In this document: positions 1 to 29,979 of the stretch, piece after piece
Layout of the letters: each line of letters opens with the position of its first letter
How positions within the stretch are numbered: position 1 is the stretch's first letter
Assembly (NCBI GenBank): GCA_964035575.1
Contig: OZ037834.1
Coordinates: 310,001-374,000, forward strand
Direction: 5' to 3'
Length of the DNA stretch: 64,000 nt
Origin: Rhynchopus sp. YZ270_cl-10
Taxonomy: Eukaryota
Notes under the pieces: generated by a model
The model's database searches: none
What the model was told of the DNA's origin: nothing
Seen by the model: the letters and a program-made list of their open reading frames with translations, nothing else
Translations under genes and position numbers: made by a program

Positions 1-644
1 GGAGTTCATCCTCGGGTGTCTACACTAATACAACCAAGTTTTCAAAAAAAAAAAAAGGGGTTTTGGTGCAGCGCATCCTCTGGGGTGGCTGCACTCCGAT
101 AGAAACCAAGTTTATTCCTTCAAATAGAAGAACTGCTTCTTCGGGGGCGTTTTTTTTTTCCCACTCCCGGTGGGGTGTGCTGTCATTGTGTATTTCTGAT
201 GATTTTTTTTGATTTTTTTTTGATTTTTTTATTCAAAAAAACGGCGTTTTACATGCAGCTCCTTGTAATTCTGCTTTCGTTTGAGGGGAAAAAAAGAGAG
301 AAAAAAAGGCGAAAACTTCATCAAATTGACAAAGACACAGCCAGCCATGACTGATGTGTTGCGAAGCTCCTGTCTACAGGCTCTCCCACACATTAGGTAT
401 CCAGGAGAATTTTTATCGACACAACAAAATTAAAAAAAAAGCATTTCTTCTTTTTCAATCACACAGACAGTTTTATCATAACATCCTTGGGGGGTGGTCC
501 ATAGATAAATAAACCAAAGATTTGGACAGCAACACTTCAGATACTTTTTTTGAGTGCCTCTTTTAAAAAAAAAAAAATCGCAAACACATTTTTCTGCTCC
601 TTTTGCATAAGAAACGATAGTTGTGTGGTGCTTTCGGAAAAGCA

Positions 645-1344: not shown

Positions 1345-4300
1345 TATATGTGCTGATTCATCATCATGTCACTTTCTTGCAAAAAAAAAAAAAATATTGT
1401 TGTGTGCGTTCTGTGTTATTCCTTACAGTGAACGCAATATGACATTTTTTTTTTTTCAAGTTTTCTTTCTTTGGACTCTGTTGCAGCAAAATACAACCCC
1501 ATCTGTTTTGTTTTTTTTATTTTGATAGCATTTTTTTTATATTTGTGAAGATTGAAGGTTCTTTCTTCATCTAAAAAGATAGTTGCTCTTTCGGGTTGGA
1601 GACGGTCTACGTCTTTCCCGTAGTACAAAAACAAAAAAAAAAAGACAGTTGGTGGAGCACACTCTAGGGTGGCTACACTAATACAACCAAGTTTTCAAAA
1701 AGACAAAAAAAAAACAAAAAAGGCTTCAGACAAAACATTGAGTACAGACCCTAAAGTAACTCACTAAGGAAAAGCTCGGTTTTTTTTCATAAAAACCCCA
1801 TCCGTTATTGTTACGTTGTAACAACACTAAGGTGGGTACAATGTACAACTGATTTGTCGTTTTTCAACAAGAAATCGGCTTTTCACAGAAAAGAGGTCAA
1901 CTACGTTCAATGAAATGCCCTCACTGGGTAGGGTATGGAATGACGCGACAATTTCCCCCCACATCCCATTTTCCCAATGCGAGATTTTTCTTCATTTTTT
2001 TTTCACTGACATTTTCCATATTTCATCTTTTCCGTTCTTTCTTATCTCTTGACAACCGATCAAACACAGTCTCAGGTGTATGTAGTGTTAATCCTCGTAT
2101 TTCATCCAAAAATTCTTTCAAAAAAAAAAAAATAGTGGAGCACACTAGGGTGGCTACACTAATACAAAAAAAACCAAGTTTTCAAACAAACATAACATAG
2201 GCACTACTGACCAGTTCGGTCCTGAGGCGTGTAACAAAATGCCAAAGAAAAAAAACAAAACAAACAAAAAGTGCACATCACATTACATTCATCACACACT
2301 CCTTTCAGATTGGCCTCTGAGTTTACCCCCCCTCACCCCAGAGGTTCAATCTTAGCGGTCATCGCAAGACTGACCACACCACAGGAGAAACCAAAAAAAC
2401 CAGAAATATTTTTCAAGAAGAAAATAAAAAGCGAAGTAACCCCAAAGCAAAAAAATACGGGGATTTTATTTTGTTTGCATCAGTTTTATCCAAACTGATG
2501 ACAAAAAAAAAAAGCAACGAAAACTGGAACTATTTGAGGATGGGCCAAGCACAAAGAGGCTTTTGGTTCATCTTGCATGTGTGCAACAGAATTTTTTTCC
2601 CCCCCATTTATTTTCTCTGTGGGTCTCTGTGGGTACATTTAGTACCCTATTATACCTTCTATTCAGTAGAACAGATAGTATATGAAACAATTACTTCCTT
2701 TTTTTTTTCTGAAGTGTCTACGAGAGGCACATCGATCTTTACAAGTTTTTTTTTTTCCCACCGTTTTTTTTTTTTGAAGATGTGTCTGTGTACACGAGAT
2801 TTACATGCATCTTTAATTTGGTTGGTTGGGTGTCCACCACCCCCCGGTACAGCCGGTCACACCATAGGTACACTCTTCACAAGAGGGCTTTGTATTTCAA
2901 CTCTATTTTGTTTTCTCCTGGACACCAAGACAAGATGTACGGCATTAAGAAAGAGACAACTGCGTGCAGGCACCACTTTGCGTGGTAGCTGACCGTTTGG
3001 CAAATTTTCAAAAATAAAATAAAATATTCATTCCGATGATTTTGCTTGGTGTATTTTTTTCTTCTCGTGTACTTCCTTTTTTTAATAGGACACCACCTGA
3101 GCCTTGTTTCTTGCATTCTGCTTTGCAAGAGCTCTTTGTCTTGCTTAGAAACAAACTCTATTTTCCTACCATTTCCTTTTTCAGAAGAAAAATACAAAAA
3201 AAAGGCAAAACGTATCCCAGGGTCTTCTTTACAAGGTAGGTGGGAAAAAAGTACAGCCTACTCTTGAAACATTACTACAGCAAATGCTGCTGTTACCGCC
3301 TGGTTGCCAGAAAATAGAGAAAAATAACAAAAAAACCGATTGCTAGGAGTGACTCCGGCATCGCACGTTTTCAAAAGGTAATAAAGTGCTCGTCGTGAAA
3401 GGAATCTAGCCTGCTACAGATGGCATTTTGCGCCACAACGCACTGTCAATATAACAGTAATAAAACAAAGTTAGATAAAAAGAGTCAAAGAAAGGAGACC
3501 AGATAAACGAAAAAAGAGAAGCCGAAGATAATTTGAGATTATTTTTTTTTTTGCTTTCGATCCTGTGAAGAAAAACCGTGGCTACTATCTTGTGATAGTA
3601 GTCTATAATCAAACAAAAAAAAATTTTTGCTTTTATTTGAGATACCATCCACTTTTTTTTCTTATTTTTGTACCCTCTTTCATTTGCGGATTTTAGTGCG
3701 AAAGAGCGAACCTTCCGATTTCCCTTATTTTTTTTGGTTTCTGTTTTTTTTCTGTACTCACTTTTTTTTGAGCCCGAGCAACAAAGAAAATAAGACAGCA
3801 ACGACACCTTTTTCAAAGGTAAAGGCCTGGTTTATTTTTCTCTTTGTCTCAACTCAAAAAAAAAAAATACATTTTTGTTTCTTTATCATTCTTTGGGGGA
3901 TTTGTTACCTACCACTACAAGCACCCAGATTTTTTGTGATAACATATTTACGTCTTCTTAGGTAATATCAATAAAAGGGCCCACGGCATTTTCCCCATTT
4001 ATTCCTTTATTGCTGCGCGATAACGAATGTGATGACAAGGTGACCAAGTACGAGAGGCTTAGGGTCATCTAAAAAAACCTTTTCTTTATTTGGCAGCACA
4101 GCGTTATTATCCTTTTTTTTGTTTCTTTTATTTGAGAAATTGTTGTCAGTAGTGTAGTTTATGCCACCTGTGCAAACACCACTTTTCCTTTCTTGAAGGT
4201 GACTAAGCACAGAGAGAAAACAAATGACTGATGAATAAACCAAAGAATAATCCAATCAGACTAAGCACAGAGAGGCTTAGGTTCATATACCAAACTTTCC

Positions 4301-4413
4301 CTTATTGTTAAAGACGGGAACATTCTTTTATTGCACGTCGGGGCACTTTAATTTCACTCCCCTAACAAATTCCTGTAGAAAAATAAAAACGGCAGTGAAA
4401 TAAAATAACTAAT

Positions 4414-4569
4414 TATTAGCGTGAAATAAAGTGCACTTTTTTTCACGCCCACGTAATTTTGGCTCACGAGTGAGAGTTTATTGCCCGAGCCGCAGGCGAG
4501 GGCAATAATAGAGCACGAGTGAGACAAAATACGTGGAAGTGAAAAAACGCACTTTATTTCAAACTAATA
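4414..4569 (+). repeat. Long imperfect palindrome (hairpin 1) of the YR element
   Basis: Arm tattagcgtgaaataaagtgc...tattgccc pairs with gggcaata...gcactttatttcaaactaata. Apex is ccc-GA-gcc-GCA-ggc-GA-ggg (4484-4502). Confidence 0.9.
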
Positions 4570-4583
4570 CGTAGTTTTGTTTT

Positions 4584-4641
4584 ACAAGTGAAAATGATAT
4601 TTTTGCTGGGATCCTTCACAAACGAGACGTAAAATAGAGTG
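4584..4641. repeat. Left inner inverted repeat flanking the YR ORF (partner 6000-6056)
   Basis: acaagtgaaaatgatatttttgctgggatccttcacaaacgagacgtaaaatagagtg matches the reverse complement of 6000-6056 (acatgtgaaaatgactttttgctgggatccttcacaaacggggcgtgaaataaagtg). Confidence 0.9.
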
Positions 4642-4859
4642 ATTTTATGAACAAAATGTGGGTACCTGTAAGTGAGAGTGTGAATGAGAGTAGGGGAACA
4701 TGTGAACATCAATCAAAAGCAGGGAAGGGGTTACTTTTTTTGATATATGCCTCCTATGACTGGTACTAATTACAAGATGTCACCACTCATCTCGCCTGTA
4801 GGGGGGGGGCAGGTGTATAGAGCATCACAGAAGGGGGGGTTTTTTTTTTGCACTCATGA

Positions 4860-5876
4860 TCATGGTTTGTTCTGTTGCACATTGATGTTAATCTTGACTT
4901 CTTGTGGCGTCTGAGTTGGGGGACTGTTGTTCTGTGTCAACAGCTGTGACATCGCAACTTGACCGGCCTGTGTGACTTCGGTGTACCTTTGTGGCATTGC
5001 CTGACTGACCCACCCATAGTGGCGTTGCATCTGTACAATAGATGCTCCTGCCTCAGCGGCTTGAGTCGCAGAAGACCTGCGGAAGCTGTGCCCAGTGTAC
5101 GAACCGTCCAGCGCAAGCACCCTCGCGACTTCTGCAGGTATGCCGTACATTTTGTTGATGCCAAGAGGTTGCACACGAAAGGTCCCAGTAGTAGTTCTGT
5201 CAGCTGTCGTCTTAGTTCCAGTGATGAAGAAGCGACCCTCCTGTGAAACTGGTGAGCGCCGGTTCAGGTACTCCTCCACCACACAAAAGTAGATGCTGTC
5301 TCTTGGTACCACAAACCTCCCACGCTCCATGTCGGCCTTTTTCACCTTAGCACAGTGCTGGTACGTGAAGAGGTATCCCACTGGTGATTCCTGATAATTT
5401 GTCATCTCAAGCATCAGTGCTTCTGTGCATCTCATTCCCGACAGAAAACACACCGCGACGTAAGCCTTGCGGACACACCAGTAGCAGTCGCTCAACTCGC
5501 TCATCTTGAGAAACATCTCCACTTCTCCCTTCGAAAACGTCTTGCTCTTCTTCGTCGATTCGTCACTTCCCCAGGTCTTCAGCAACAGCCCGATGCGGTG
5601 GTACTCCTTTAGTGAAAAGTCGAACTCCGTCTTGAACATAAAGTTGAGCTTAGAGTAGCACGACCATAATGAGCTGGCTTTGTAGCTGCGTTCTTCGCGC
5701 AGGTGTGTCAAGTAAGAGACCACATGTTCTTCTCTTGGCTGCTTCCGCCCCGTGATTTTATTGTGTTGTAAAAACTTATTCCACTCCGTTTTGTATGCAG
5801 TGCTTGACTTCAACCCTGCCAGAAGCTCGGTCTCATACAGATCCTCCATAGCCTCCTTCTTCTTGGTCCTTGGCAT
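4860..5876 (-). CDS. Tyrosine recombinase (phage-integrase family), Crypton-like transposase, 338 aa, apparently intact
   Basis: Catalytic motifs in the correct order: R (SGMRCTE), HxxR (YTGHSFRRSSAT), H/W (HYGW), Y (PQRYTE). N-terminal core-binding-like segment (TAYKTEWNKF...SSLWSCYSKL). Balanced-GC coding island in AT-rich DNA. No reverse transcriptase nearby. Confidence 0.93.
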   Translation of the reverse strand: MPRTKKKEAMEDLYETELLAGLKSSTAYKTEWNKFLQHNKITGRKQPREEHVVSYLTHLREERSYKASSLWSCYSKLNFMFKTEFDFSLKEYHRIGLLLKTWGSDESTKKSKTFSKGEVEMFLKMSELSDCYWCVRKAYVAVCFLSGMRCTEALMLEMTNYQESPVGYLFTYQHCAKVKKADMERGRFVVPRDSIYFCVVEEYLNRRSPVSQEGRFFITGTKTTADRTTTGTFRVQPLGINKMYGIPAEVARVLALDGSYTGHSFRRSSATQAAEAGASIVQMQRHYGWVSQAMPQRYTEVTQAGQVAMSQLLTQNNSPPTQTPQEVKININVQQNKP

Positions 5877-5925
5877 GATTTGTAGGGTGGAGTGTGTGGT
5901 TTTGTGACTGACAGAAAACAGTGAA
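5877..5925 (-). promoter_or_regulatory. Putative trans-splice acceptor and short leader of the YR gene
   Basis: Minus strand reads tttcactgttttctgtcAG then tcacaaaaccacacactccaccctacaaatc-ATG. The A/C-rich leader resembles those of the host genes at 19966 and 24265. Confidence 0.4.
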
Positions 5926-5999
5926 ACTTTTTTTCACGCCAGTGAAACTTTTTTTCACGCCTCCAGCGAAATTACTAAGAGCAAGCGTGAAAAAAAGCT

Positions 6000-6056
6000 C
6001 ACTTTATTTCACGCCCCGTTTGTGAAGGATCCCAGCAAAAAGTCATTTTCACATGT
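6000..6056. repeat. Right inner inverted repeat flanking the YR ORF (partner 4584-4641)
   Basis: Reverse complement of 4584-4641, including an exact run ttttgctgggatccttcacaaacg. Confidence 0.9.
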
Positions 6057-6176
6057 GATATAAAAGGCTTTATTTCTTTATTTCACTCTTTATTTCACTC
6101 TTTATTTCACTGCTCGATTTTTTTTTTTTTTTCGCAAAGACAAAATTTTCAGCCGAAAAAAAAAATTTTTTTTGGG

Positions 6177-6417
6177 CTCAGATGGACCCAAAAATGCAAA
6201 TAAAGCAAGAATTTTGATGTTTTGAGCATCACATATTTATTCCCCGGTCATTTTCTGTACAAAAAACCGGTTTGTATGGGCCAGCGCCTTAGCAAAAATC
6301 CGAAAAATCGGGAAAAAAAAATTTTTTTTCCCCGGAAAATTTCGACTCCTGGGTGGGGTCTTGGGGTACCGAAAAATGCAAAAAAAACGCAAAATTTGGG
6401 TATTTTGACCATCTGAG
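6177..6417. mobile_element. Possible MITE inside the YR composite (ctcagatgg...ccatctgag termini)
   Basis: Terminal 9 bp perfect inverted repeat extended imperfectly (ctcagatggacccaaaaatgcaaat / atttgggtattttgaccatctgag). No clear TSD. Confidence 0.35.
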
Positions 6418-6730
6418 GGATTTTTTCACGTGTTTCACCTTAGATGGAAGCGGATGCGGCTGGTGGGGGTGGGGTGTGCCCACCTACGGGAACAGTGCTG
6501 CCTGTGGAGTGGCCACTCCATCTGCCTCAATGGTGTTTAGGTCGGACATCAGCAACTCTGCAAGGTTGTGATACAGGAGATAAAGATATTTCGAAAAGAG
6601 AAAAATTTGAATGAAGATAACCCCAACACCAAAGGGAAGTTGATACGATGAACGTAAGCCTTGAGAACTAAGCGTTTAGCAGACCCCCGGGTTGTGAAAT
6701 AAAAGTGCCCCGTTGTGCAATAAAAAAATG

Positions 6731-6890
6731 TATTGTTGGTGTAATATTTTGCCTTAATTTCACTTACAGCCCCAAAACCCCTCGGAGTGGTATTTTTTCC
6801 CCTCGGGCTGCGCCCTCGGGGAAAAAAACCACTCCTCGGGGTTTTTTGGGGCTGTGCGTGAAATAAAGGCAAAAATATTACACGTCAATA
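6731..6890 (-). repeat. Long imperfect palindrome (hairpin 2) of the YR element
   Basis: gtgtaatattttgccttaatttcac (6739-6763) pairs with gtgaaataaaggcaaaaatattacac (6858-6883). Minus-strand apex is cccc-GA-gggc-GCA-gccc-GA-gggg. Confidence 0.9.
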
Positions 6891-8411
6891 ATATATATTA
6901 TTGATCCCACCTCCGATGCTATCAATTTATTGGATGCTTATGTTGCAATATTGTTTTTTTTTTTTGCGAATCTCTGTATTCTTCCTTTAGGTGATCCGAA
7001 AAAGCAGTGCGAACGAGAAGCTCAGGCTCACCTTCACAAAACGTTTACTTTTTTTTTGCAAAAAAAAAGTGTGCAATTTTTTTTCTTCTCCTCTTTTGTT
7101 TGTTTGCTATTTTCTCTCTTTGTTTGGATCTCTCTGTCTCCTTTTATCTCTCTCTCTCTCCAAGCTGAGGTGTTCCATCACTGACAGAAGGGGGTTTTTT
7201 AAAAAAAAAAAACGGGCAAACCAATGCTTTCTGTTCCTCTGAATTGAAAGAAATTGATTGTATTTTTTTATCCACCTGATTTTCTGCCAAACACCGCCAA
7301 AATTGGAGGGTCTAAAAATCAGGTGGTTTTATACCGTGCCTTCTTATCCATTCCTCCTTCTTTGTCAACGGATCACGTTCTGCGTATTTTCTTCATCTCC
7401 AGAGTCCAGACAAGCAAACAAAACAAAAAAAAATAAATAATAAAAAATGCACATTTTATTCTCTCCACAAATTTTTTAAAAAAAAATATGAAGTTCACTC
7501 CCTTTGCTGTTTCGATAACCAAAAGCAGAGTGGGTAAGGTGCCTTTGTCGTCCACAGTGATGTTTCTTTTTTGGCACACTACTGTATAATCGTTTACTTT
7601 GTCGCCCACATAATCTATCAACTTAGTTAATTGGCGTGTGACAAAATTGAACGATTGTACAGTAATCCTCAACTTCCATTTTTTTTCTCTCCAATAAAAT
7701 GATTCATGCGACCCTTGCAATTTTTTTTTGAAAAAAAAATTCTTATTATGCCTTGTGTTACAGAACCCCGTTATTTGGATAGGGGTGATTGTCGATACGA
7801 CAAAAAAAAAATCGGTACATAAAAATATGACAAAAAAATGAGTGTTTTTTTTTGGTGAATAACTGTCTGAACTGGCAGCTTTTTTGTTTGTTTGTTTACC
7901 TTTCATTTTTTAACCCCTATGGTGAGGGGTGTCTGACTGCCAGTGTTTTTCGACTTTTTATTTCTTCTTCTTTTTTGTGTGGAAAAATATTCAAAACTTA
8001 TTTGATGTGTTCGCATTCCTTCGAGTGTTCTCTCTGATCTTTTTTTGATAGGAAAAAAATGCCAAATTGTCTTGACAAAAATGAAAACTAAAAATGACTT
8101 TAAAATTGACAGTGCGTGCTCCATTATATGTTTGTCACCACGAAACAAGATAGAAGACTGCGTGGTTGGGGGGGGGGAGGGTTGTCCACCACCCCCCCCT
8201 ATGGGTGCACTAAAGGTTCACTGTCAACGAGAGTGCTTTTTTTGGATTTCATATGTCAATTTTTGTTTACCCATCCCCGCCCCGTTTTTTTTTTTTTTTT
8301 TACAGCACAACCATTAACCCTGCTCTTTGGTTTTGTGAGAGTGGTGATTGTTGCAATATTCTCAACATTAAAAAAAAAAAAAAATCCGTCTATATCTTTT
8401 AAGTACAATAG

Positions 8412-10995: not shown

Positions 10996-12580
10996 TATTT
11001 TTCTTTCTGGGTTTTTTTTATTTTATTTCCAGTGCCTACGACCGCCGATGTACGGTGATGCGTTTTGCACTTTCAACTTCTCTTTTTTTATTTTTCTGCT
11101 TCGACAAAGAACTAAACATGCAATAGCCTCACCATGAGGTCACTCATGTTTTCAAAAACTTTCTTTGAATTTATTTCTTTTGATTTATTTTTTTCTTTCT
11201 TTTTCCCTTTAGTCAGAGTGTCATCCCATCCCCTCCTCCTCCTCATCCCTCCCCCCCACACACACATATTTTATTCCATGTACTTTTATTGGAATGCAAA
11301 ATTACTCACAAATTTTTCAACCTATTTGAACCCCTTATTCAAGTCTACTCAAATTATAATACAAAAGCAACAACAACACAAAACTATTAGTTGAGTACAT
11401 CCTTCGGGTGTTTACACTAATAAAACCAAGTTTTTCAAAAAAAAAACAAACAAACAAAAGATTCTGGAGGAGGGTGTTCAAATTTCCCGTTTTTCCCTTT
11501 TCTCCCGTTTTTCCCTTTGTCTTTGCCACTTTTTTTTCCAAAAAAAAAAATTTTTTTTTTTTTTTGACAAGGCAATTCCCAAAGCGATGGCATTGGATGG
11601 CAGTATCCGAAGTCAGACCTCCGGAAATATTGAATCCTTAATGGACGACTTCAATGTGATCGCTGCCTTCTCCCTCTACGTCCCACCCTTCAAGAACACG
11701 GAGACTCGCAAGCTGCAAGTATTTTGAGGTTGTTTCTGCGAGCCCCGACCTATACCGTTCATCTTCGGAGATATGTACAGTGTGCGCACTACTTTCCGCA
11801 GGAAGAACGGGCCCATTTTGGGCTCCGACCTCAGAGGCCGTTTTCGAGGACAGCTACAGTGGGATATTTCGGTTCCTCAATTTTTTATAAAAAAAGCGAA
11901 AATCTGCCTATGTGCTTGAAAAATGCTGTGCATTTTTGGTAGAATTTTTTAAAAATTGCTATACTCCCCTATGACTGGACCCAACTCCCCTCACTCTTTT
12001 TTTGGTCAAAAACACCCCAAATTTTTCTACCTTTTTTTCCGTTTTTTCCGTTTTTGACCTTTTTAGACACCCTCCGGAGACACTATTTTTCCAAGATTTA
12101 TCCAGACATCCCTCACAAAAACAAACCAAAAAAAACAAGATTAATTTTTTTAATAAAAAGACGAAGAGACTGCGTTGGACCATATATCCATCCTGTAGTT
12201 AAAAATCTATTTTTCTTGGTATTCCTATCTAAACACCCTTGCCCTCATCCGCTCTTCTTTTCGCACTCCCCTTGGGGTATTGTTTTTGAGGTGTTGTAAT
12301 GTCGATTGAGATACTTAGACTCCTCGTACATTTTTATCTGTTTTTTTTTTTTTTTTGTAATGTGTGCATACTGCAATACACATTATTTGCCAAGGTTTTT
12401 TTTTTTGTTTTTTTTTTGGGGGATTTTTTTGGGATAAGATGGACTAAGCACAAAAGGCTTAGTCACCTTATCCATAGGTTGGTACTTAGGTTCAAAACTT
12501 TAAGTGATCTAATCAGACGCTAAGCACGAAAGGCTTAGCAAACTCGCACACCGCCAAACTTTTTCTTTCGGGTACTTTGT

Positions 12581-15356: not shown

Positions 15357-16554
15357 GGTGGGCCAACCCCGAATCAAGATCCTAAATCCAAGCTATCCAA
15401 TTAGCCGTACCCTCCTCTCTTCGCACATCGCTTTGGTTAAGGATCTAAAAAAGCTAAACAGACACAAACACAAAATAGCAAAAACAAAGAGTACAAACAT
15501 AACAACAAACCTTTTCAAACCCCCCCCTCTTTCTCCTCCCGTATTTAGGACACATCTTTTTTGGGGTATTTTTTTTTAAGGTGACCAAGCACCGAAAGGT
15601 TCAGGTTTTATCCTTTGACCGTGCACGGAAACACATTCATTCCAGGAAAGAGTTTTTTTTTTTTTTTGTTTCGATACAAGACGGCTAAGCATTGTAGTGC
15701 CATCTCTGAGGCTTGTCTTTCTACTAAAAAGCTTTTTTTCTGTTTATTTCTCGTGGGAAGGTGTGAAGTGTATTGTGTACGATGAATGATAATCGCACCC
15801 ATTTTTTTTAAAAAAATCTACCCCATATTATTAACGATTTCTTTTTTATATATTCCGAACAGGAATGGGAAAAACATTCTTTTTATTGATCCCCTCCTAT
15901 GCTCTCAATTCATTTGATTGTATAATATTATGTTGAAATACTTATTTTCCGAAGCTTGCTCTAAAGGAGAAAAAAATAGTATTACCGATGCCAAATCATC
16001 CCTCAAACAGGAGGATTTTTTTTTGTGCAAATCAAACGAACCAACTTTTTTTACTTTGCCGATCCTACTATTTTTAAAAGGTGACCTAAAAACATACAAA
16101 AGACCTTAGGACCCATCTTCGCCAAATTTTATTATTATTATTTCTGCACCTTTTTTTTATCATTTGTTTTTTTGCCATGCCTTTCTTGTCCTGCCAACTT
16201 CTTTTGATTCTATCTTTTTTATTTCTAACAAATTTAAAAAACATAGAGCAACAAAACGAATCAATGGGTTTTCCACGCTTAGTAAAAAAGGCGGTGTGAC
16301 AAATCCCACTAAACGATACCCCTGGATAGGGTCAACGTTGTGCATAACTTCATTCAGTTATATTTGTTCTTCGGGGGGGAAATTGTTGTGTTCATCAGCA
16401 GTTACTTAGTGTTTTAGTATAGTGGAGTTCATCCTCGGGATGTTTGAGCTAATACAAAATACATAGTGGTGCACACTCTAGGGAGGCTACACTAATACAG
16501 TACCGGTTATCGGAATGTACCATTGGTAATCAGTGGTGGTGTGATTCAGGGGGT

Positions 16555-17766: not shown

Positions 17767-18562
17767 TGAAAGACAGATAGGTGCAGAGAGGTGCACACAT
17801 CTTTTTTTGGTTTTTTCATTTTCCTTTTCTTTTCCCTTTCAAATGCTTTCAATTCTGTGAACTGAAAGTATATGAATCTAATTTTTTCCTGGCCGCAGGG
17901 TATGTTGTACTTTCACTCTGGATGCCTGGCATCGTACAGTGGGTCAGTCGGAGGTGCGCCTGTACCAACAACTGCCCGATCATTTTTTTCTCTTCTTCTT
18001 CTTCTCTCTCTCTCTCTCTCTTTTCAACATGATGTGTTTTGCGTGCTTAAAGCGTGTATAAGCTTTTTTTTCAATCCTCCTCTTCCCCTCCCCCCTCTTT
18101 GAAACAAACTTTTCAAACCCCCTTCTCCCTCTTTTTCTTCAAAGAAACCAACAAAAACAAAGTATAGCGGAGCATACTCTAGGGTGGCTACACTAATACA
18201 AAAAAAACCAAGTTTTCAAAGAAGAAAAAAACAAAAAACAACAATAACAGCAACACAAAGACACAACATTTTTTTTTTAGGTGACTATCCCTCATAGGCT
18301 TAGGTCCATCGTATAAACTTTTCTCTCTCTCTTTTTATTTTTTTTTGCTTCTCCTTCATTCTTTTTTGAAGGGTAAAAAACCAAAGGCAACTCTAAGCAT
18401 CCAAAAAACCAGAGATTTCCCTTTTTTGTCTCAAAAATTTACCCCCTTTTTCCCCCTTTGTGTGTCCTCACCCCCCCCACCCCCACCACCCCAGACCTGA
18501 AAAAGAATCCTTTGTTACCAGGTCAACCCTCCTACATACGTAGCAACAACAATAACAAAACA

Positions 18563-18610
18563 TAGTGGAGCACACTCTAGGGTGGCTACACTAATGCAAA
18601 CCAAGTTTTC
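18563..18610 (+). repeat. Hairpin repeat family A, representative copy (~12 copies)
   Basis: Consensus tagtggagcacactctagggtggctacactaatacaaaccaagttttcaaa. Copies at 1-46, 65-114, 1650-1700, 2133-2186, 11388-11440, 15168-15205, 16420-16458, 16464-16499, 18165-18220, 18563-18610, 19081-19140, 28258-28310. Confidence 0.85.
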
Positions 18611-18782
18611 ACAAAACAAACAAACTTTCAAAGCCCCCCTACATACCTCCTTCAGTACAGACGGAATAGTCAGAGGGGGACTACTATAGTGGTTCTCAAA
18701 AAAAAAATACAACAAAAAAGATTGATGAAATGACCAATGTTCAAAACATTAAGCATTACGTAATCTGATAAGACTACTAGTA

Positions 18783-18872: not shown

Positions 18873-19245
18873 TAGTTGCTATTCGTTGTCATCTAATAAG
18901 ACTACTAGTAGTTGCCAATTCGTCCAAATGGCTAGTGTTATATGACGTAGTGTAACACTAATAGGTTAACAAAAAGTTTTCGTTGCGACTATAGTAGTTC
19001 CACTTCGCAGTTCTCCTGACTGGCCTCCGTCGTGGAAAAAAAAAATGCGGCTACTTCATCGACCCTACGATAAAACTAATTAGTGAATCGCACCCTCTTA
19101 GGGGGTGCCTACACTAATATCAAAACCAAGTTTTCAAAAAAAAAAAAATTCTTCCCCATTTTTTTCCCTCCTCTCTCTCTTTTCCCTTTTTAAAGATGTG
19201 TATGTATGCGAAGCATATTCATCTCCAGACCTTTTTTTTTTTTCA

Positions 19246-19864: not shown

Positions 19865-19965
19865 CACTTTCCAAGTTTACCTTTTCGTTTTCTTGTGCGT
19901 TTCTCCCGCAATACATCTCCACACAGGTACAGTACTCTCCCAGCATCACCTCATAAACAACCACA
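19865..19965 (+). promoter_or_regulatory. Conserved pyrimidine tract + AG leader (putative trans-splice acceptor), shared with 24154-24264
   Basis: ttttcttgt(g/a)cgtttctccc...catctccacAGgtacAGtact...AGcatcacc...caaccaca-ATG is conserved between the paralogs, while sequence further upstream is not. Confidence 0.5.
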
Positions 19966-22787
19966 ATGAGCGGACTCGAGGCACGTTTCATTTTTAACTA
20001 TAACGAGGCTAAAAAGACCGCGGCTCAAAATTCCGAGGCTAAAAGTAAGAAGGCTAAAAGTACCGAGCAGGAACGCGCCAGACCACGGCACATGTACCAC
20101 TTCAAATCCTCGGATGCTTGGAACCCAAACAACTTCAAAACTGATATCAAGGCTATCCTGGCTTGCAAGGAATTCACCGACCTCGTGCGACAACTGCAGT
20201 ATCCTGCTGGGGTCGAGTTGCTCTGCACGTTGCGCCAGAACAACGAGATCGACGACAACGCACCAACGGAGAAGATCGTAAGGCTGCTGCTGACAGAGTT
20301 CATAAGGAAAGACGGTGAGCTGAAGGGGAGACAGCTGCAGTGCAACACAAATGTGTTCCTCGCCCGCGCAGAGCACTGCAAGTTTTATAAGGAACTCTCT
20401 GAAGGCACATTGGTTAAGAATTCAAAGATATTCGCGAGCCTGCACCCGACCCTGAAACACCCCATCAATGCTCAAGGGTCACTGCCCGAAGAGGATGGGT
20501 TCATGCGTGTGCAATTCGAGAAAGAGTTCCAAGAAGACAGCGGCGTGGAGGGCATCGAAAGACGCGCAAAGGAAAAGTACGGCGAGAACCCCGGGCAAGA
20601 ACTCATGAGCTTTGAGGCGCGCTGGACCAAGGAGGGGAAGATCAACTTTGAATTCAAGCTGCCCCTCAGCGGGGAAAGTGTAACGAACGAGGACTTCGCA
20701 CACCTGCCGTGCCCTGTCGCGAAGGATAGGTTCAACTACGACGTACACGTGCTCCCCGTTGTGTCCACGCCAGAGCAGTTCTTCGAGGCATTCGATGATG
20801 CGCCACAGAATTGGAACACTGTCTACGTGGACGACGAGCTTCAAGGCAAACTCAATGACGCTTACCTGAAAAATAACGACGTAGTTGTCAAGGAGCGCCT
20901 CATTGTGGTGACTGTGGCGCACAAAGACCGCAAACACTTGGAAGTCACTTACACTGTGAAGGAGAGCAAGCCTGGGGATCCGACCCGCATCTTTAACCCC
21001 GTCGATGAAGCAAAAAGCCTACTGCAGCGCTCCCTTGTGTCCGGCATCAAATGCCAACGCGATCACAACCACAATATCAAGACTTGTTCATATTATCACT
21101 CGAAGGAGAAAGCCTCCGACATCATCAAGGAGGTGCGTCGCGGGCAAAAGTACATCGACGCCGACGCCAAAAATGACAAAAACCCCACCGGGTTCAAGGA
21201 CTATATGTGTCGTGGGTATTCTTGGCTGTGGGGGAACATTGACAAGAACTTTGCTGGTAAGAACTATTTCAGGACGGATGTGGCCATTGTGTTCAATAAC
21301 AACAAGAAGGAGACTGGTGAGTGGGTGGTGACACACCGAAGAGCAGCTGAAATGACAGAGAGAATCAGCACAGATGGGGAATCAGTTATGGTGTATGAGA
21401 AAAAGACGGAAACCCTGGAAGAAGGGCTGAAAAGGTCTTTGAACACAGTGCAGGGGATGTACGAACTTCTCAGCGACGACCCAGACTTGCTCGACAAACT
21501 CGACTGTAAGTACCTCACTCGGGCGACTGTCCGTTACCCCCCGCCGGTCCCTAAAGCGATACCGTACTGCCGATTCTACGGAGGAAGGCTGTCCCAGCTC
21601 TCCAACAGTCTGTCGTTTGCACTTGCCAAGACCAAAGAAGAGGCGGATAAACTGAAGGTCAGCCTTACGTCCTCGAAGTGGGGAGGTGTGAAGAGGGATA
21701 CATCAGGACACACAGCGAAGAGTTTCCTGCGAAAGCTCTGGGGAAGACGGTTGGGTGGATCTGGAGGTATCAAGGTAAGCCGTACTGTAATAACAAAGCT
21801 GCAGACTTGTTTGTGTTCTGCGACGTAGATGGGTACAGCGGCCTCTGGTTCGGAAAAAATAAGCCACCAGACAGCGTGCAGACGTGGGCTAGACAGGACC
21901 TAGTGAACGAATTCGAGGACGAACTCTCTTCCTTGAAGGAAGCCCGCCCTGCACAAGACAAATCCTCGACCGCAGGACCACCGATTTCTTCAGCGAAGGG
22001 CGCAAGCTCTGCGCAAGACATATCTTCCTCTTCACAACTTCCCCAGAAATCTTCCTCAAAGCAAGCCGGGAAAGCAGCGTACTCACCAGCCTCTGCACTA
22101 GACACATCCTCGGCCGCAGAACCACTGTTTTTTTCAGCGGATAAAAACCCGTCTCCCACTACACGAGCGGGGCAGGATGCTTCCCGGAGAGCTTCCCAGG
22201 GAGATTCCCAAAAGCGAGCCCAACGATTGGTTTCTTCAGCGAAGGGCGCAAGCTCCGCGCAAGACACATCTTCCTCTTTACAAACTCCCCAGAAATCTTC
22301 CTCAAAGCAAGCCGGGAAAGCAGCGTACTCACCAGCCTCTGCACGAGACACATCCTCGGCCGCAGGACCACTGATTTCTTCAGCGAAGGGCGCAAGCTCC
22401 GCGCAAGACGCATCTTCCCAGCAGTCTTTCCCACAGAAGCAAGCCGGAAATGCTTCATCCCCCTCTCCAGCAGCGGACTCATCAGCCTCTGCACATGCCA
22501 CATCCTTGCCAACCACTGCAGGACCAGATGATCTGAAGGTGTGCAAGGGCGTTATTAACGGCCATCTGGAAGAGCTGGAGGACGTCCTCCTATCCAAGGA
22601 GAGAGTCAACACGATGCAAAAACTACTGAATGAACCGGGTATGTCCGAGTTGAGGTGCATAGCCATGGGTCGGCAACTTATGTTGAACGAATGGGAGGAA
22701 TGCTCTCGCAGAGACTTGGTAGCTTTAATTAAAGGCACACTGTCTGATATGCGCAAACTGTGCCCCGGTACCTCGTACCTACGTTAG
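19966..22787 (+). pseudogene. Paralog 1 of an uncharacterised protein family (~940 aa if repaired), broken by a 1-nt frameshift at ~21694; pseudogene or sequencing error
   Basis: ORF 19966-21828 aligns to the 962 aa paralog up to SSKW. Homology continues in ORF 21678-22787 (GYIRTHSEEFPAKAL vs GYIRTHKAEFPAEAL). DNA gtg-aag-ag-gga-tac vs paralog gtg-acg-aag-gga-tac. Confidence 0.75.
21985..22460 (+). repeat. Internal coding repeats in paralog 1 (SSAKGASSAQD...KQAG)
   Basis: ~143 bp block at 21985-22127 repeated at 22231-22373, with a partial third copy from 22375. Confidence 0.8.
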
Positions 22788-24127
22788 TTGTGTCCTTCCC
22801 CCGCTTTTGATTTGTTTTCTTGTTTGTTTGTTTTTTTTCTATCATATTTTTTGTGTTCCTCACTCAAATACGTGTGCCGAGTGAGCCTATTCCCCTCCCC
22901 TTTTTGTTCCTGCTTTCCGAAAAAGTGGTCTGCACATTCTTAACTACCACACACTAGATATCTCGTTCGCACGTTTCTCAGGAATGAGCGATGATTTGTT
23001 TGCAGCTTCACTATTCTTTATGCATATGCCGGAATGTATGACCAACAACTCTGGTCCTTTCCTTGGGCGACTGCGCGAAATTATGTGATTTCTAATTTTC
23101 ACTTCCCAGGCACATTTTCCACCTGCGGCATATAATAATGTCGAGGAACGGTTGCAAGTCCACATACCCTCACCCCCTCTTTCGAAGCCACATCACGTAG
23201 GCATGGACATGTATAGGTCACTGTGCTTGTTCACCTCTCTCTCTCTCTGTTGTTGGTGTTGCTATAGCTTCAGCGCATTGACGTTATTCTTTTTCTTTCA
23301 AGTTTTCTTCTTCTCTATTCTTTTTTCTGTCATAACACGGGTGGTATCCGGGTTCAGATTCCAGGTAATCCCAGGAAATTTCCAGTATTTCAGATCTGGA
23401 ATTTTTCTCGAGTAAACGGGTGTACGGGAGGCTGTGGTTACTTCATTCGAGTATCCGTGAGCATCTGTGCACTGTGAGGGTGATTGTGGGAATAAATCTG
23501 AGAACCCTGGAATCAATCCTGCCCATGTTATTTATTATTTTTTGACTTTTGTTTGCCTCTTTTATGTAACCCACCATGGAGTGGCGAGGTGGCAGTAGAG
23601 CCAAAGCAAACATAGGCAGCTCACAGAGACACATGTCCATGACGAGTCTTTGTGACGTTGTGATATGTATTCGTCCACCACCCCTCGCCACTCCACTGTC
23701 TTGTATCGCATTGTTTACCCTCTATCGCCATTCATTACAAGCTCAGTGGTACAATAAATGTGCACATCTTCGGTGTCTGCACTAATGCCAGCCTCCGATT
23801 ACCACCTCTTTCAACAAAAAGGAAAAACTGTTGTGTTCACTTTGAAAATAAACAAATGTCAACCCACCCATCCCAACATCAAGGGTCCTCATATGCCCTG
23901 ATGTCGGGTAAAAAAGGGCCCTTGCCGTCTGGTACAGCATGCACACCCCTCAGCCATCCGCAGCCATTGGGACCACTCTTGGCATTTTGTGCCCTCTTAC
24001 AATCACGTCCAAATGGACTTCCTTGACGAAGCATGCTTGGGTGTTATCTCTCAGGACTCTCTCTCACTGCATGGTCTGGGGCATGTGGACCGTGTCAACA
24101 GCATCTTTTGTGTGCACCCAATGACCC
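22753..24127 (+). repeat. Segmental duplication copy 1 (partner 28405-29820)
   Basis: Both copies start gcaaactgtgccccggtacctcgtacctacgttag and end ccaatgaccc. Highly similar throughout with small indels. Confidence 0.92.
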
Positions 24128-24264
24128 AAGGTGTGGTCCTTCGGAGAGTTTTCTTGTTGTAGCACTGTCCAGGGTTACTTTTTTGTTTTTCTTGTACGTT
24201 TCTCCCACAATCCATCTCCACAGGTACAGTACTATCTTTTAGCATCACCACACAAGCAACCACA

Positions 24265-27153
24265 ATGAGCGGACTCAGGGAAAGCGTCTGGGATAAATAT
24301 GCCAAGGGGGAAGACGCCAACGGACCACGGTATATGTGCCACTATAAACCTGCGGACGCAGCGCCTGAGGACCGAAAGAACTTCGCTGATATGAAGGAGA
24401 TCCTGGACGAGGAATTTCCCAACCACGTGCGGCAACTGCGGTATTCTGCTGGGGGCGAGTTGCTCCGCATGTTCCACCGTGACAGCAAGATCCGCGACAA
24501 AATGATCAAAGGAAATATACCAACAGCCACCACGGAGAAGCTCGCAAGGCTGCGGCTGACAACGTTCAAAACGAAGAATAACGAGCTGAAGGGGAAACAG
24601 CTGCAGTGCGACACAAACGTGTACCTCACCTACGCAGAGCGCTGCAGGATTCATAAGGAGCTCTCTGAAGGCACATCGGATATCAATTTCCCAGAGATAT
24701 TCGCGAGCCTGTACCCGACCCTGATACACCCCATCGATGCTCAAGGGTTGCAGTCTGTATCCGGAGAGGATGGGTTCATGCGTGTGCAATTCAGCGACAA
24801 CTTCAACAAAGACAGCGGCGTGAACGGCATCAAAAAACGCGCTAAGAATTTTGGGGGACCAAAGCTCACGAGCTTCGAGGTGCGCTGGACCAAGGAGGGG
24901 AAGACCAACTTTGAATTCAAGCTGCCCCTCAGCAAGACATGTGTAACGAACAAGGACTTTGCACACCTGCCGTGCCCTGTCGCGAAGGATAGGTTCAACT
25001 ACGATGTCCACGTGCACTCCGTTGTGTCGACGACAGAGCAGTTCTTCAAGGCATTCGCTGATTCGCAACAGAATTGGAACACTGTCTACGTGAACGACAT
25101 CGAGCTTCTGAAAAAACTCCAGCTACCTGACCTGAGAAAGAACAACGCTTCCAGTACCTACGAGCGCTGCATTGTGGTGACTGTGACGCACAAAGACCTG
25201 AAGTACCTGGAAGTCACTTACACTGTGAAGGAGAGCAAGCCTGGGGAGGAGGACAGCATCGTAGACCCCGTGGCTAAAGCAGACGACCTACTGAAGTACT
25301 GCCTTGTGGACTCCCTCAAATGCGATCCAAGCAAAGGTGCGTGTCAAGGGCTCGAAAAGTGTGCATATTATCACGTGAAGAGGGACGCCACCACTGCCGA
25401 CATCATCAAGGACGTGCTTCGTGGGGAAAAGTGCATCGACGCCGCCGCCAAAATAGTCAACAAATCCGGTTTCAAGGACAGCATGCGTCGTGCGTATTCT
25501 CTGCTGTGGCAGAACATCGACCTGAACTTCGTTGATAAGAACGGACCCCACGCGGACCTCGAAGTAGCCGTTGTGTTCGAGAACAAAAAGAAGGAGGATC
25601 GTGGGTGGGTGGTGACACACCAAAGAGCAGCTAAAATGACCAGAACCAGCAAAGATGGGAAACGGACAGAAGTTACGGTGAAGGAGAAAGAGAAGGAAAC
25701 CCTGGAAGACGGGCTGAAGAGGTCTTTGCAAACGGTGCAGAGTATGTACGAACTCCTCAACTCATCCTTGCTCGGCAGTCTCGACTGCAAGCTCCTCACT
25801 CGGGTGACTGTCCGTTACCCCCCACCGGTTGACTCAATGAAGTACTGCCGATTCTACGGGGGATGGCTGGCCGAGCTCTCCAAAAGTCTGTTGTTTGCAC
25901 TTGCCGAGTCCGAAAAAAAGGCAGACATTGTGAAGGACCACCATACGTCCTCAAAGTGGGAAGATGTGACGAAGGGATACATCAGGACACACAAAGCAGA
26001 GTTTCCTGCGGAAGCTCTGAAGGGGAAGACGGTTGGGCTGATCTGGACTTACGGAGGTGAGACGTACTGTAATGACAAAGCTGCAGACTACTTTGTGTTC
26101 AGTGACGCAAAGGGGTTCAGCGGCCTCTGGTTCGATGGAGAAGATAAGCCAGCAGACGACGTGCGTGAGGGGACTGAGGGACTGGACAAAGTTAAGAATT
26201 TCTATGGCGAATACCCGTCCTTGGAGCCCAAGCAAGCCGCCCAGACACCCAAAACCCCGCCTTCCCAGCTAGCTTCCCGCACCCCCCCCGTACAAGCTTT
26301 GCCCTCATCTCCTCAAAAGCAAGCCATGCAAGCCGCATCTCCCCCAGAGCAAGCCGGGAACGCTTCGTCCCCCCCTCCAGCAGCGCACCCAGCAGCCCCT
26401 GCACGAGACAGACCCTCGCCAACCGCAGGACCACTGGACAGCGGTGCACTGCGTTTCTCCTCATCTCCCCAAAAGCAAGCCACGCAAGCTTCATCTTCGC
26501 CGAAGGCACCGCACAGTAGCCCCGAGCAAGCCGCATCTCCCCCTTCACACGGGCCCCACGCAAGCTCCGACCCCCCCAGCAAACGGGCTCCCCAGCTGCC
26601 TCCCTCAGAGCAAGCCGGGAATGCCTCGCCCCCCTCTCCAGCACCGCACTCAGCAGCCAGCACAAGACAGACCCTAGTCAACCACAGGACCACTGAACAG
26701 CAGTACACCGCGTTTTACCCACCATACAGCCTCGCGCCCCCTTCACACGGGCCCCACGCAAGCTACGCCCATCCCTCCCACCCGCCTTCCCAGCTGCCTC
26801 CCCCAGAGCAAGCCGTGAATGCTTCGTTCTTCCCTTCAGTAGCGTACCGACCAGCCCCACAAGACAGATCTTTGCCAACCGCAGGACCACGCAACAGCGT
26901 TGTACGGCCTCGGCACAAGATGATGATTAGCAGCTATCTGGAGGAACTGTCGGAATTCAGCCACCTCGAGAGGAGGGTCAAGGTGATGCGAGAGATACTG
27001 AATGAACCGGACCTGTCCTCTGTCGAGATGTGCGAGGACATGGATGTGGAACTTAATCTGATGAAGAGACAGAACAGCGGGAAGGAATGCCCTAGCAGCG
27101 ACCTCGTGCACGCAATTGAAGACACACTGTCCGTGATAAAGCGCGGTACGTAG
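24265..27153 (+). CDS. Uncharacterised 962 aa protein (paralog 2): globular N-terminal ~650 aa with a CCCH-like motif, P/S/A-rich linker, short helical C-terminus
   Basis: Long intact ORF with colinear similarity to paralog 1 (e.g. DFAHLPCPVAKDRFNYDVHV identical). C-x6-C-x5-C-x3-H at 25321-25374. No family recognised. Confidence 0.88.
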   Translation: MSGLRESVWDKYAKGEDANGPRYMCHYKPADAAPEDRKNFADMKEILDEEFPNHVRQLRYSAGGELLRMFHRDSKIRDKMIKGNIPTATTEKLARLRLTTFKTKNNELKGKQLQCDTNVYLTYAERCRIHKELSEGTSDINFPEIFASLYPTLIHPIDAQGLQSVSGEDGFMRVQFSDNFNKDSGVNGIKKRAKNFGGPKLTSFEVRWTKEGKTNFEFKLPLSKTCVTNKDFAHLPCPVAKDRFNYDVHVHSVVSTTEQFFKAFADSQQNWNTVYVNDIELLKKLQLPDLRKNNASSTYERCIVVTVTHKDLKYLEVTYTVKESKPGEEDSIVDPVAKADDLLKYCLVDSLKCDPSKGACQGLEKCAYYHVKRDATTADIIKDVLRGEKCIDAAAKIVNKSGFKDSMRRAYSLLWQNIDLNFVDKNGPHADLEVAVVFENKKKEDRGWVVTHQRAAKMTRTSKDGKRTEVTVKEKEKETLEDGLKRSLQTVQSMYELLNSSLLGSLDCKLLTRVTVRYPPPVDSMKYCRFYGGWLAELSKSLLFALAESEKKADIVKDHHTSSKWEDVTKGYIRTHKAEFPAEALKGKTVGLIWTYGGETYCNDKAADYFVFSDAKGFSGLWFDGEDKPADDVREGTEGLDKVKNFYGEYPSLEPKQAAQTPKTPPSQLASRTPPVQALPSSPQKQAMQAASPPEQAGNASSPPPAAHPAAPARDRPSPTAGPLDSGALRFSSSPQKQATQASSSPKAPHSSPEQAASPPSHGPHASSDPPSKRAPQLPPSEQAGNASPPSPAPHSAASTRQTLVNHRTTEQQYTAFYPPYSLAPPSHGPHASYAHPSHPPSQLPPPEQAVNASFFPSVAYRPAPQDRSLPTAGPRNSVVRPRHKMMISSYLEELSEFSHLERRVKVMREILNEPDLSSVEMCEDMDVELNLMKRQNSGKECPSSDLVHAIEDTLSVIKRGT

Positions 27154-29820: not shown

Positions 29821-29979
29821 TCCACCACTCCCCCCTGTCCTCACCCCTATCCCCACACCCCTCCTCACACAAAACAGAAAATTATCCTTCCCATTCTCCC
29901 CCAAAAAACCCCTGTTACTGGGTCTTTTTCTTAAAAACCCCCTCTTTTTTTTTTTCTTTCCAAAAAACCTATTACCAAG

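What the first reader, a model, noticed from the sequence alone, without database searches (positions are those of the whole stretch)
4321..6890. Nested, mirror-image architecture: two [hairpin-IR ... IR] units in opposite orientation
Seen: the inner unit is hairpin 1, IR 4584-4641, YR ORF, IR 6000-6056. The outer unit is IR 4321-4357, ..., IR 6694-6730, hairpin 2. In each unit the hairpin lies just outside one IR, so the ends are asymmetric. A third IR (gcagtgaaataaa 4392-4404 / 6101-6113) encloses the inner unit. Inference: either an autonomous element inserted into a related non-autonomous one (self-targeting), or a single composite element. The IR-bounded ORF segment could also be invertible by its own recombinase.
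Basis: partly seen in the sequence, partly recalled or inferred. Interest (0 to 1): 0.7.

Follow-up and report, generated by a model that had tools for sequence, protein, structure and literature searches.

The report
Nested recombinase transposons with self-folding ends
A small, many-copy jumping gene that carries its own DNA recombinase has landed inside a gene-less element of the same build, and both are laid out so that one DNA strand would fold back and hold the element's two ends together, which suggests a single-stranded way of moving that the papers read here do not report for this class of eukaryotic transposon.

Summary
Nesting is real. Other assemblies hold the outer unit without 4404-6061 (3 of 5 runs laid) and the inner unit next to other A-rich flanks. 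The inner element (4406-6061) is a Crypton-type DNA transposon with one intact Cre-like tyrosine recombinase; the identical protein is recorded on 37 contigs. The outer element (about 4330-6900, opposite strand) is gene-less and built the same way. The 'third IR' is only part of the outer element's motif array. Self-targeting is weak: the target looks like an A-tract. No inverted copy was seen, although the gene's direction relative to the hairpin changes repeatedly across relatives. Main point: the hairpin's inner arm plus the adjoining IR arm form a mirror copy of the joined ends, like the DIRS-1 internal complementary region. Relatives at 25-33% protein identity keep this layout (10 of 13 testable), and tandem G.A pairs sit on one strand (22 versus 1). 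This points to a folded single strand as recombinase substrate, as in integrons: inferred, about 50%. I did not find it in print, but this scan noted the same layout and idea on other DNA before.

The parts
4406..6061 (+). Inner autonomous element, 1656 bp, hairpin end first (starts TAACTA, ends GTGATAT); AAAA on both sides; two extra A's relative to the empty site
   Evidence: Joint 4403->6062, skips 1658, both=2; contigs of X5, X8, X9 stop matching at 4402/4398 and 6065
4407..4576 (+). Hairpin 1 (arms A and A'), two tandem G.A/A.G blocks (CGAG facing CGAG) and a GCA triloop on the + strand
4520..4642 (+). Internal mirror copy of the joined ends: A' (complement of the left end) directly followed by B (complement of the right end)
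   Evidence: Aligns over about 120 nt with the modelled junction, one base shorter at the junction itself; whole-strand fold pairs 4402 with 4583 and 4585 with 6055
4575..4642 (+). Inner IR arm B, abutting the hairpin base
4860..5876 (-). Tyrosine recombinase ORF, 338 aa, R149 K177 H263 R266 W289 Y298 intact, Cre-like fold
5919..6014 (.). Motif array upstream of the start codon: two 21-nt repeats and a 10+6+10 palindrome (5987-6012) that mirrors 4421-4446; likely recombinase binding sites (inferred)
5999..6065 (-). Inner IR arm B', terminal, ending in the AAAA repeat
4402..4405 (+). Left AAAA direct repeat (target A-tract)
6062..6065 (+). Right AAAA direct repeat
4330..4403 (-). Outer gene-less element, non-hairpin end (IR arm B' 4330-4357), flanked by TTTT 4326-4329
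   Evidence: X5 matches from 4322 with another flank; X6 single-locus contig ends at 4355, implying shared sequence from 4326 if k=31
6062..6902 (-). Outer gene-less element, remainder: motif array 6069-6113, captured piece of a common host repeat 6157-6420, IR arm B 6694-6731, hairpin 2; no recombinase remnant
   Evidence: X5 record 13 matches 6317-6902 then has 193 other letters; tblastn and hmmsearch empty
6722..6902 (-). Hairpin 2, two tandem G.A/A.G blocks on the - strand; terminus at about 6897-6902
4392..4404 (+). One arm of the 'third IR' (partner 6101-6113): part of the outer element's subterminal motif array, split by the insertion

Best explanation
A 1.66-kb transposon encoding an intact Cre-like tyrosine recombinase has inserted into an A-tract near one end of a 0.9-kb gene-less element of the same build, and both likely move as one folded DNA strand whose two ends are held side by side by an internal mirror copy. 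Shown: nesting, ends, A-rich flanks, many copies, the layout A-A'-B-core-B', its conservation in distant relatives and the one-strand bias of the non-standard pairs. Inferred: (1) when the strand that starts at the hairpin is single-stranded (for example at a replication fork), A pairs with A' and B' with B, so both ends meet on one continuous duplex that mimics the circle junction; (2) the recombinase, bound to GTGAAATAAA-type motifs, would make one pair of strand exchanges in the A-tracts, freeing a closed single-stranded dumbbell and a clean empty strand; (3) the folded junction would be joined to an A-tract elsewhere by one exchange and fixed by replication, as for integron cassettes. The outer element would borrow this or a closely related recombinase. 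Odds: nesting and identity 0.9; folded-strand mechanism about 0.5.
For: Nesting: joint 4403->6062 in X5 (side 82), X6 (side 57, contig depth 1762 against 99-123 for single-locus contigs) and X4 (side 22, weak); X8 holds the inner unit (1 difference, 1 gap) with no depth over 6487-6927. Activity: window protein = P0002, on 37 contigs; a one-residue variant on 4. Enzyme: Pfam Phage_integrase E 3e-9, model pLDDT 90.8, best PDB matches Cre/Tre, TM 0.70-0.74. Layout: hairpins scoring 50 or more (15 shuffles, maximum 32) in 24 of 60 metagenome families; of 25 hairpin elements tested, 13 had a far-end inverted match that 0 of 100 shuffles reached, and 10 of these 13 begin within 6 nt of the hairpin base. 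In a six-copy gut-protist family (98.7-99.3% alike, all different flanks) L041 holds an actual head-to-tail junction that matches the internal mirror copy but for 2-3 bases at the joint. Strand bias over 29 hairpins read from the hairpin towards the gene: G.A 104 vs T.C 29, tandem GA/AG 22 vs 1, tip motif 17 vs 1, whichever way the gene points. CGAG blocks and GCGNAGC loops are known stable DNA hairpin motifs (PMC10085684, PMC13037366, abstracts). Precedents: DIRS-1 ICR (PMC7192593, passages), attC (PMC3458562, abstract). Active Cryptons both excise cleanly and gain copies (PMC9977147, passages), as one-strand excision would give.
Against: No intermediate was observed for this element: no circle joint, and L041's junction could be a tandem dimer or a double-stranded circle. 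Folding energies of the two strands differ little (-49.6 vs -48.3, -62.0 vs -61.8). Families share ancestry, so the strand-bias counts are not independent; 4 of 29 hairpins go the other way and 4 tie. 12 of 25 tested elements had no significant far-end IR, and 36 of 60 families showed no hairpin, many on short contigs. L049 is a 98.7% copy without the hairpin, starting exactly at B, so either the hairpin was lost later or it is dispensable. The fold is closer to Cre (TM 0.72) than to integron integrase (0.56). A cruciform in double-stranded DNA would also favour such loops.
Confidence: 0.6

Rival explanations
1. Same nested pair, but it moves by the textbook Crypton route: two rounds of strand exchange between the short direct repeats free a double-stranded circle; hairpin and IRs are accessory binding sites, a cruciform or a regulatory switch.
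For: This is the proposed model in the literature (PMC3212892 passages; PMC13565253 passages). AAAA lies on both sides. The enzyme is Cre-like. Palindromes of 10+6+10 geometry sit at 4421-4446, 5987-6012 and 6858-6883 in plain duplex DNA. L049 lacks the hairpin.
Against: Does not explain why B begins exactly at the hairpin base in 10 of 13 elements or why tandem G.A pairs lie on one strand 22 to 1. The empty site has six A's, not four, so the footprint is not a simple loss of one repeat.
Confidence: 0.3
2. The B-core-B' segment is an invertible switch flipped by its own recombinase, using the internal junction copy and the right end as inverted sites.
For: The internal copy is an inverted near-copy of the junction. 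Gene direction relative to the hairpin: 15 one way, 11 the other, 8 changes on the tree, at least 5 forced by well-supported branches, no more clustered than shuffles (mean 8.6). L049 begins exactly at B.
Against: No strand-changing joint in X5, X6, X8, X9 (one joint row, none hidden) or among the 15 of 45 joints shown; the longest perfect stretch of the IR is under 31 nt, so a common flip should show in such contigs (inferred). All six copies of the L050 family keep one direction. Side labels were set by hand and some hairpins may belong to neighbours.
Confidence: 0.07
3. The insertion was directed to the related element (self-targeting) because the empty site looks like a recombinase site: one motif, six A's and GGC, then inverted motifs.
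For: The empty site has the same 10+6+10 shape as the internal palindromes; X8's record begins with the same 8 letters of left flank. DIRS-1 inserts into itself (PMC7192593).
Against: X5's left flank is a diverged host repeat, X8's and X9's right flanks are A-runs without the motif; A-tracts are abundant; relatives also end in A-runs.
Confidence: 0.2

Closest known systems
CryptonI DNA transposons of insects (Kojima and Jurka 2011, PMC3212892; passages and supplement 1 read)
   Same: Single tyrosine recombinase with no extra C-terminal domain; 1.5-2.0 kb (CryptonI-1_RPro is 1657 bp, this element 1656-1658); gene-less partners exist.
   Different: Reported only in insects and with no terminal repeats of any kind; here a non-insect-like host, AAAA repeats, a one-sided hairpin and an internal junction copy. 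Kinship by tree could not be tested: no labelled CryptonI protein came from a tool (my sense that the motifs match is recalled).
CryptonF (PMC3212892 supplement 1; active CryptonF-1_cRei, PMC9977147 passages)
   Same: Listed terminal repeats ATAACT, TAACTA and CAGTAT resemble the hairpin-end start here (TAACTA; TAGTAT in relatives); clean empty sites plus copy gain.
   Different: No GCR1_C domain here (0 of 44 proteins); the 6-mer stands at one end only; no hairpin or internal copy in the passages read.
DIRS-1 retrotransposons and their internal complementary region (PMC7192593, passages)
   Same: An internal stretch complementary to both outer ends, placed side by side; tyrosine recombinase; single-stranded DNA intermediate shown there.
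   Different: No reverse transcriptase, gag or long inverted terminal repeats here; in DIRS-1 the strand comes from RNA, here it would have to come from the chromosome.
Integron attC cassettes (PMC3458562, abstract) and CTX phage attP (recalled)
   Same: Works like: a folded single strand of one polarity as tyrosine-recombinase substrate, one exchange, replication finishes.
   Different: Bacterial; the site is one hairpin, not two ends splinted by an internal copy; the enzyme here is closer to Cre in fold; not shown biochemically here.
[quoted passage not shown]
   Same: Tyrosine-recombinase elements that copy out one strand preferentially.
   Different: Four core genes, median 15.7 kb, Gammaproteobacteria only; intermediates found as nicked double-stranded circles.

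Membership tests
Crypton (broad sense) | One tyrosine recombinase with R-H-R-Y, no reverse transcriptase or DDE transposase | tested here: met
Crypton (broad sense) | Short (4-6 bp) direct repeats at both ends | tested here: inconclusive
   AAAA on both sides, but inside A-tracts of variable length; empty site has six A's, net gain two
Crypton (broad sense) | No terminal inverted repeats | tested here: met
   Only one IR arm is terminal; the other lies 170 bp inside, behind the hairpin
Crypton (broad sense) | Mobile, with clean empty sites | tested here: met
Crypton (broad sense) | Double-stranded circular intermediate (proposed, not demonstrated) | not testable with these tools
   Only contigs could be laid; no circle joint seen
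CryptonI | 1.5-2 kb, recombinase without C-terminal domain | tested here: met
CryptonI | Groups with CryptonI recombinases in a tree | not testable with these tools
   No labelled CryptonI sequence among the 10 clusters looked up
CryptonI | No direct or inverted repeats at the ends; insect host | tested here: not met
   Repeats present; host looks like a protist (11,355-aa unbroken ORF; inferred)
CryptonA | DUF3504-type recombinase | tested here: not met
   0 of 44 aligned proteins hit DUF3504 at E 0.01
CryptonF | GCR1_C domain | tested here: not met
   0 of 44
DIRS-1 | Internal region complementary to both ends | tested here: met
DIRS-1 | Reverse transcriptase, RNase H, gag; inverted LTRs | tested here: not met
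   Single ORF
Integron-type single-strand recombination | One strand's fold is the recombinase substrate | tested here: inconclusive
   Strand bias of non-standard pairs and layout fit; no biochemistry
Invertible DNA switch | Both orientations present in one population | tested here: not met
   No strand-changing joint in 4 of 4 runs; contigs drop rare variants

The most novel reading that the evidence does not exclude
A widespread lineage of eukaryotic recombinase-only transposons moves as self-splinted single strands: the DNA-only counterpart, and possibly the source, of the DIRS-1 internal complementary region, and a eukaryotic parallel of integron recombination. This active one-gene element, with exact ends and a known empty site, is a ready test system, and its near-identical copies in differently labelled samples may mark very recent horizontal spread.
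Probability: 0.45. Interest if true: 0.82.

Novelty: new variant of a known kind. Interest (0 to 1): 0.62.

Why it matters
A 2026 review states that Crypton transposition has not been demonstrated and that a double-stranded circle is only assumed (PMC13565253, passages); the one study of active Cryptons found clean excision together with copy gain and called the mode complex (PMC9977147, passages). A folded single strand would explain both, and the variable, short end repeats. This locus makes the question testable with one 338-aa enzyme, exact ends, a simple A-tract target and a natural gene-less passenger. It would also tie DNA-only Cryptons to DIRS retrotransposons through a shared end-splinting region. 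The nesting itself is ordinary.

Tried and rejected
No genome is held for the window, so copies could not be collected directly. Word-based protein search found only the element's own cluster; the HMMER library found 1770 relatives at E 0.001, best 40% identical. The protein atlas gave no answer. Viral contigs: 0 matches to the hairpin-tip pattern and no related gene among 30 candidate stretches. Rfam: 0 matches at gathering score in 3900-7300. No RNA holder listed, which says nothing on expression. No second copy of either element in the window, and no recombinase remnant in the outer element. Single composite element: rejected. Third IR as boundary: rejected. RNA hairpin: unlikely, since the favoured strand does not follow the gene's direction. 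L043 looked like a second head-to-tail junction but its ends did not fit the layout; not used. L002 and L030 are sisters with opposite gene direction, but their hairpins gave no blastn match, so this pair is weak. Summed contig depth along the element was not used as copy number. Literature: searches found no paper describing a one-sided hairpin with an internal junction copy in Cryptons; the 2019 Kojima review was not held, Repbase entries and figures could not be seen, and five of six supplements of PMC3212892 were not read, so the layout may be recorded there.
Full report
Observation. The repeats are as described. The inner IR (4575-4642 / 5999-6065, 85%, E 5e-15) and outer IR (4320-4357 / 6694-6731, 89%, E 5e-8) and both hairpins (4407-4576, 6722-6902) stand out in a self-comparison, and the hairpins fold as DNA at z -10.8 and -13.5 with 0 of 200 shuffles as stable. 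The ORF 5876-4860 encodes a 338-aa tyrosine recombinase with R149, K177, H263, R266, W289 and Y298; the model (pLDDT 90.8) matches Cre/Tre best, TM 0.70-0.74. A 10-nt motif, GTGAAATAAA, occurs 25 times in the window at up to one mismatch, 17 of them between 4327 and 6867; the 'third IR' is two of these. The host is a eukaryote, likely a protist (an unbroken 11,355-aa ORF with VWA and Cys-rich repeats starts at 29935; inferred). No genome is held.

Nesting. Eleven runs hold the stretch or part of it; I laid five (X4, X5, X6, X8; X5, X6, X8, X9), all as contigs. A joint from 4403 to 6062 (1658 skipped, shiftable by 2) stands in X5 (82 letters on the short side), X6 (57) and X4 (22, weak). So the outer unit exists without the inner one. 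X5 holds the inner unit (4402-6065, one difference) behind another flank, X8 holds it (4398-6065) with no depth over the outer hairpin, and X8 and X9 continue behind 6065 with A-runs. X5 also shows the outer unit with foreign flanks before 4322 and behind 6902. X6 and X4 hold the window's own flanks and may be its source, so they are not independent; X6's empty-site contig is about 14-18 times deeper than its single-locus contigs (1762 vs 123 and 99; rough, the tool warns that depth is no copy number). The protein identical to the window's (P0002) is recorded on 37 contigs, a one-residue variant on 4; these may come from more than one assembly. Thus inner = 4406-6061 with AAAA each side; outer = about 4330 to 6897-6902 on the other strand, about 0.9 kb when empty, without recombinase remnants and not a deletion product of the inner one (only short matches; the hairpins align loosely). 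The empty site has six A's. It resembles the 10+6+10 palindromes inside the elements, but the three other flanks seen are plain A-tracts, so self-targeting is weak.

Layout. Each element reads A-A'-B-core-B' (wording reused from scan note e1-7769825). A' is followed at once by B, so A'+B is the mirror image of the sequence made by joining the two ends. For the inner element the modelled junction aligns with 4520-4642 over about 120 nt and is one base longer at the joint; the whole strand folds with 4402 paired to 4583 and 4585 to 6055; the outer element aligns likewise.

Relatives. HMMER found 1770 proteins at E 0.001, mostly 25-40% identical; one of 10 clusters looked up is from the diplonemid Flectonema neradi. 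A scan of metagenome contigs with a 10-protein alignment gave 71 loci in 60 families. Hairpins scoring at least 50 (15 shuffles, maximum 32) occur in 24 of 60 families; many of the others are contigs too short to show ends. Of 26 hand-picked hairpin elements, 25 could be tested: 13 have an inverted match beyond the gene that 0 of 100 shuffles reach, 10 of these 13 start within 6 nt of the hairpin base, two have hairpins cut by the contig start, one is a weak match inside the hairpin, and 12 have no significant match. Ends recur: an A-rich flank then TA(G/A)(T/C)A at the hairpin end, an A-run after B'. One family from gut metagenomes with intron-split eukaryotic flanks (likely Blastocystis, inferred) has six copies 98.7-99.3% alike with six different flanks; L041 joins the 3' end straight to the 5' end, and this junction matches the internal mirror copy except for 2-3 bases at the joint; L049 lacks the hairpin and starts exactly at B.

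Strand bias. For all 28 hairpins above threshold (one per family and side, doubtful ones kept) plus the outer hairpin, read from the hairpin towards the gene and aligned with standard pairs only: G.A 104 vs T.C 29, G.T 64 vs A.C 41, tandem GA/AG 22 vs 1, CGAG-loop-CGAG tip 17 vs 1; 21 hairpins favour G.A, 4 the reverse, 4 tie. The families are related, so the P values of that call overstate the case. Tandem sheared G.A blocks in CGAG and GCGNAGC loops are stable DNA hairpin motifs (PMC10085684, PMC13037366; abstracts). The bias follows the element's end, not the gene, which argues for a DNA fold rather than an RNA one. Computed energies of the two strands are nearly equal for the window's hairpins.

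Inversion. The hairpin lies upstream of the gene in 15 and downstream in 11 of 26 elements; the tree needs 8 changes, 5 forced by well-supported branches, as many as shuffled labels (labels set by hand, long branches, intron-split proteins joined roughly). Flips of B-core-B' therefore likely recur in evolution. For this element no strand-changing joint was seen (four runs, one joint, none hidden) nor among the 15 of 45 joints shown.

Mechanism. Most likely the hairpin-first strand folds into a dumbbell that brings both ends together on one duplex; the recombinase makes one pair of exchanges in the A-tracts, releasing a closed single strand and leaving a clean empty strand; the folded junction then enters another A-tract by one exchange, finished by replication. 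All of these steps are inferred. They copy the logic of attC (PMC3458562, abstract) and of the DIRS-1 internal complementary region, which is essential for DIRS-1 movement through single-stranded cDNA (PMC7192593, passages). They would explain clean excision with copy gain in active Chlamydomonas Cryptons (PMC9977147, passages). The rival is the double-stranded circle model (PMC3212892, passages; PMC13465315, passages; PMC13565253, passages), favoured by the Cre-like fold, the duplex palindromes and the hairpin-less copy L049.

Known versus new. It is a Crypton in the broad sense, nearest in size and gene content to CryptonI (CryptonI-1_RPro 1657 bp, terminal repeats not detected; supplement 1), not CryptonA or F (no DUF3504 or GCR1_C in 44 proteins). 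Membership in CryptonI is untested by tree and fails on host and repeats. Ten literature searches and passages of PMC5753468, PMC10161547 and PMC4157794 gave no description of this layout; Repbase, the 2019 review, figures and five supplements were not seen. Earlier notes of this scan saw the layout and, as I found after forming the idea (note), proposed the same folded-strand reading for CryptonA-type and other elements on other DNA; these are unchecked AI notes and are not counted as support. What this locus adds is an active one-gene member outside the DUF3504 group, exact ends, an observed empty site and a cross-family count of the strand bias. Verdict: new variant of a known kind; nesting ordinary, mechanism lead worth testing; interest 0.62.

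Noticed in passing
runs X5, X8, X9 against window 4322-6902: Samples under three other organism labels hold the inner element with 1-2 differences (X5 also the outer one) while the window's unique flanks show no long match; recent horizontal transfer between related protists, mixed samples or filtered records are all possible.
   Followed up: partly
L041:1-60 and 1541-1596: Head-to-tail junction of a related element beside an ordinary integrated end: tandem dimer or circle, in an active family from gut metagenomes.
   Followed up: partly
L049:2277-3679: A 98.7% copy that lacks the whole hairpin and begins exactly at the internal IR arm: precise hairpin loss or recombination at the internal junction copy.
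   Followed up: partly
L038:1605-1664: The 3' end of a related element continues as its own perfect inverted copy (tail-to-tail); may be an assembly or amplification artefact.
   Followed up: no
window 4404 / about 6808-6818: X4 shows a joint from the insertion site to the tip of hairpin 2 (short side 26 letters, so weak); possibly a shorter outer variant.
   Followed up: no
window 6157-6420: Piece of a very common dispersed repeat carried inside the outer element; X5's inner copy sits in a diverged member of the same repeat.
   Followed up: partly
window 29935-64000: One open frame of at least 11,355 aa with VWA domains and long Cys-rich arrays (975-bp and about 930-bp units).
   Followed up: partly
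window 19865-27150 and 22753-24127 / 28405-29820: Two paralogous genes (623 and 996 aa, 76% alike in DNA, faint CCCH finger) and a 1.4-kb duplicated segment.
   Followed up: no
window 1-56, 1630-1720, 2116-2195, 11380-11450, 16451-16499, 18149-18244, 18545-18625, 19103-19148, 28236-28325: A short dispersed repeat of 50-90 nt recurs nine times in the AT-rich region.
   Followed up: no
window 4406-4411: The hairpin-end start TAACTA equals terminal repeats listed for fungal CryptonF elements (ATAACT, TAACTA), though the proteins differ in domain content.
   Followed up: partly
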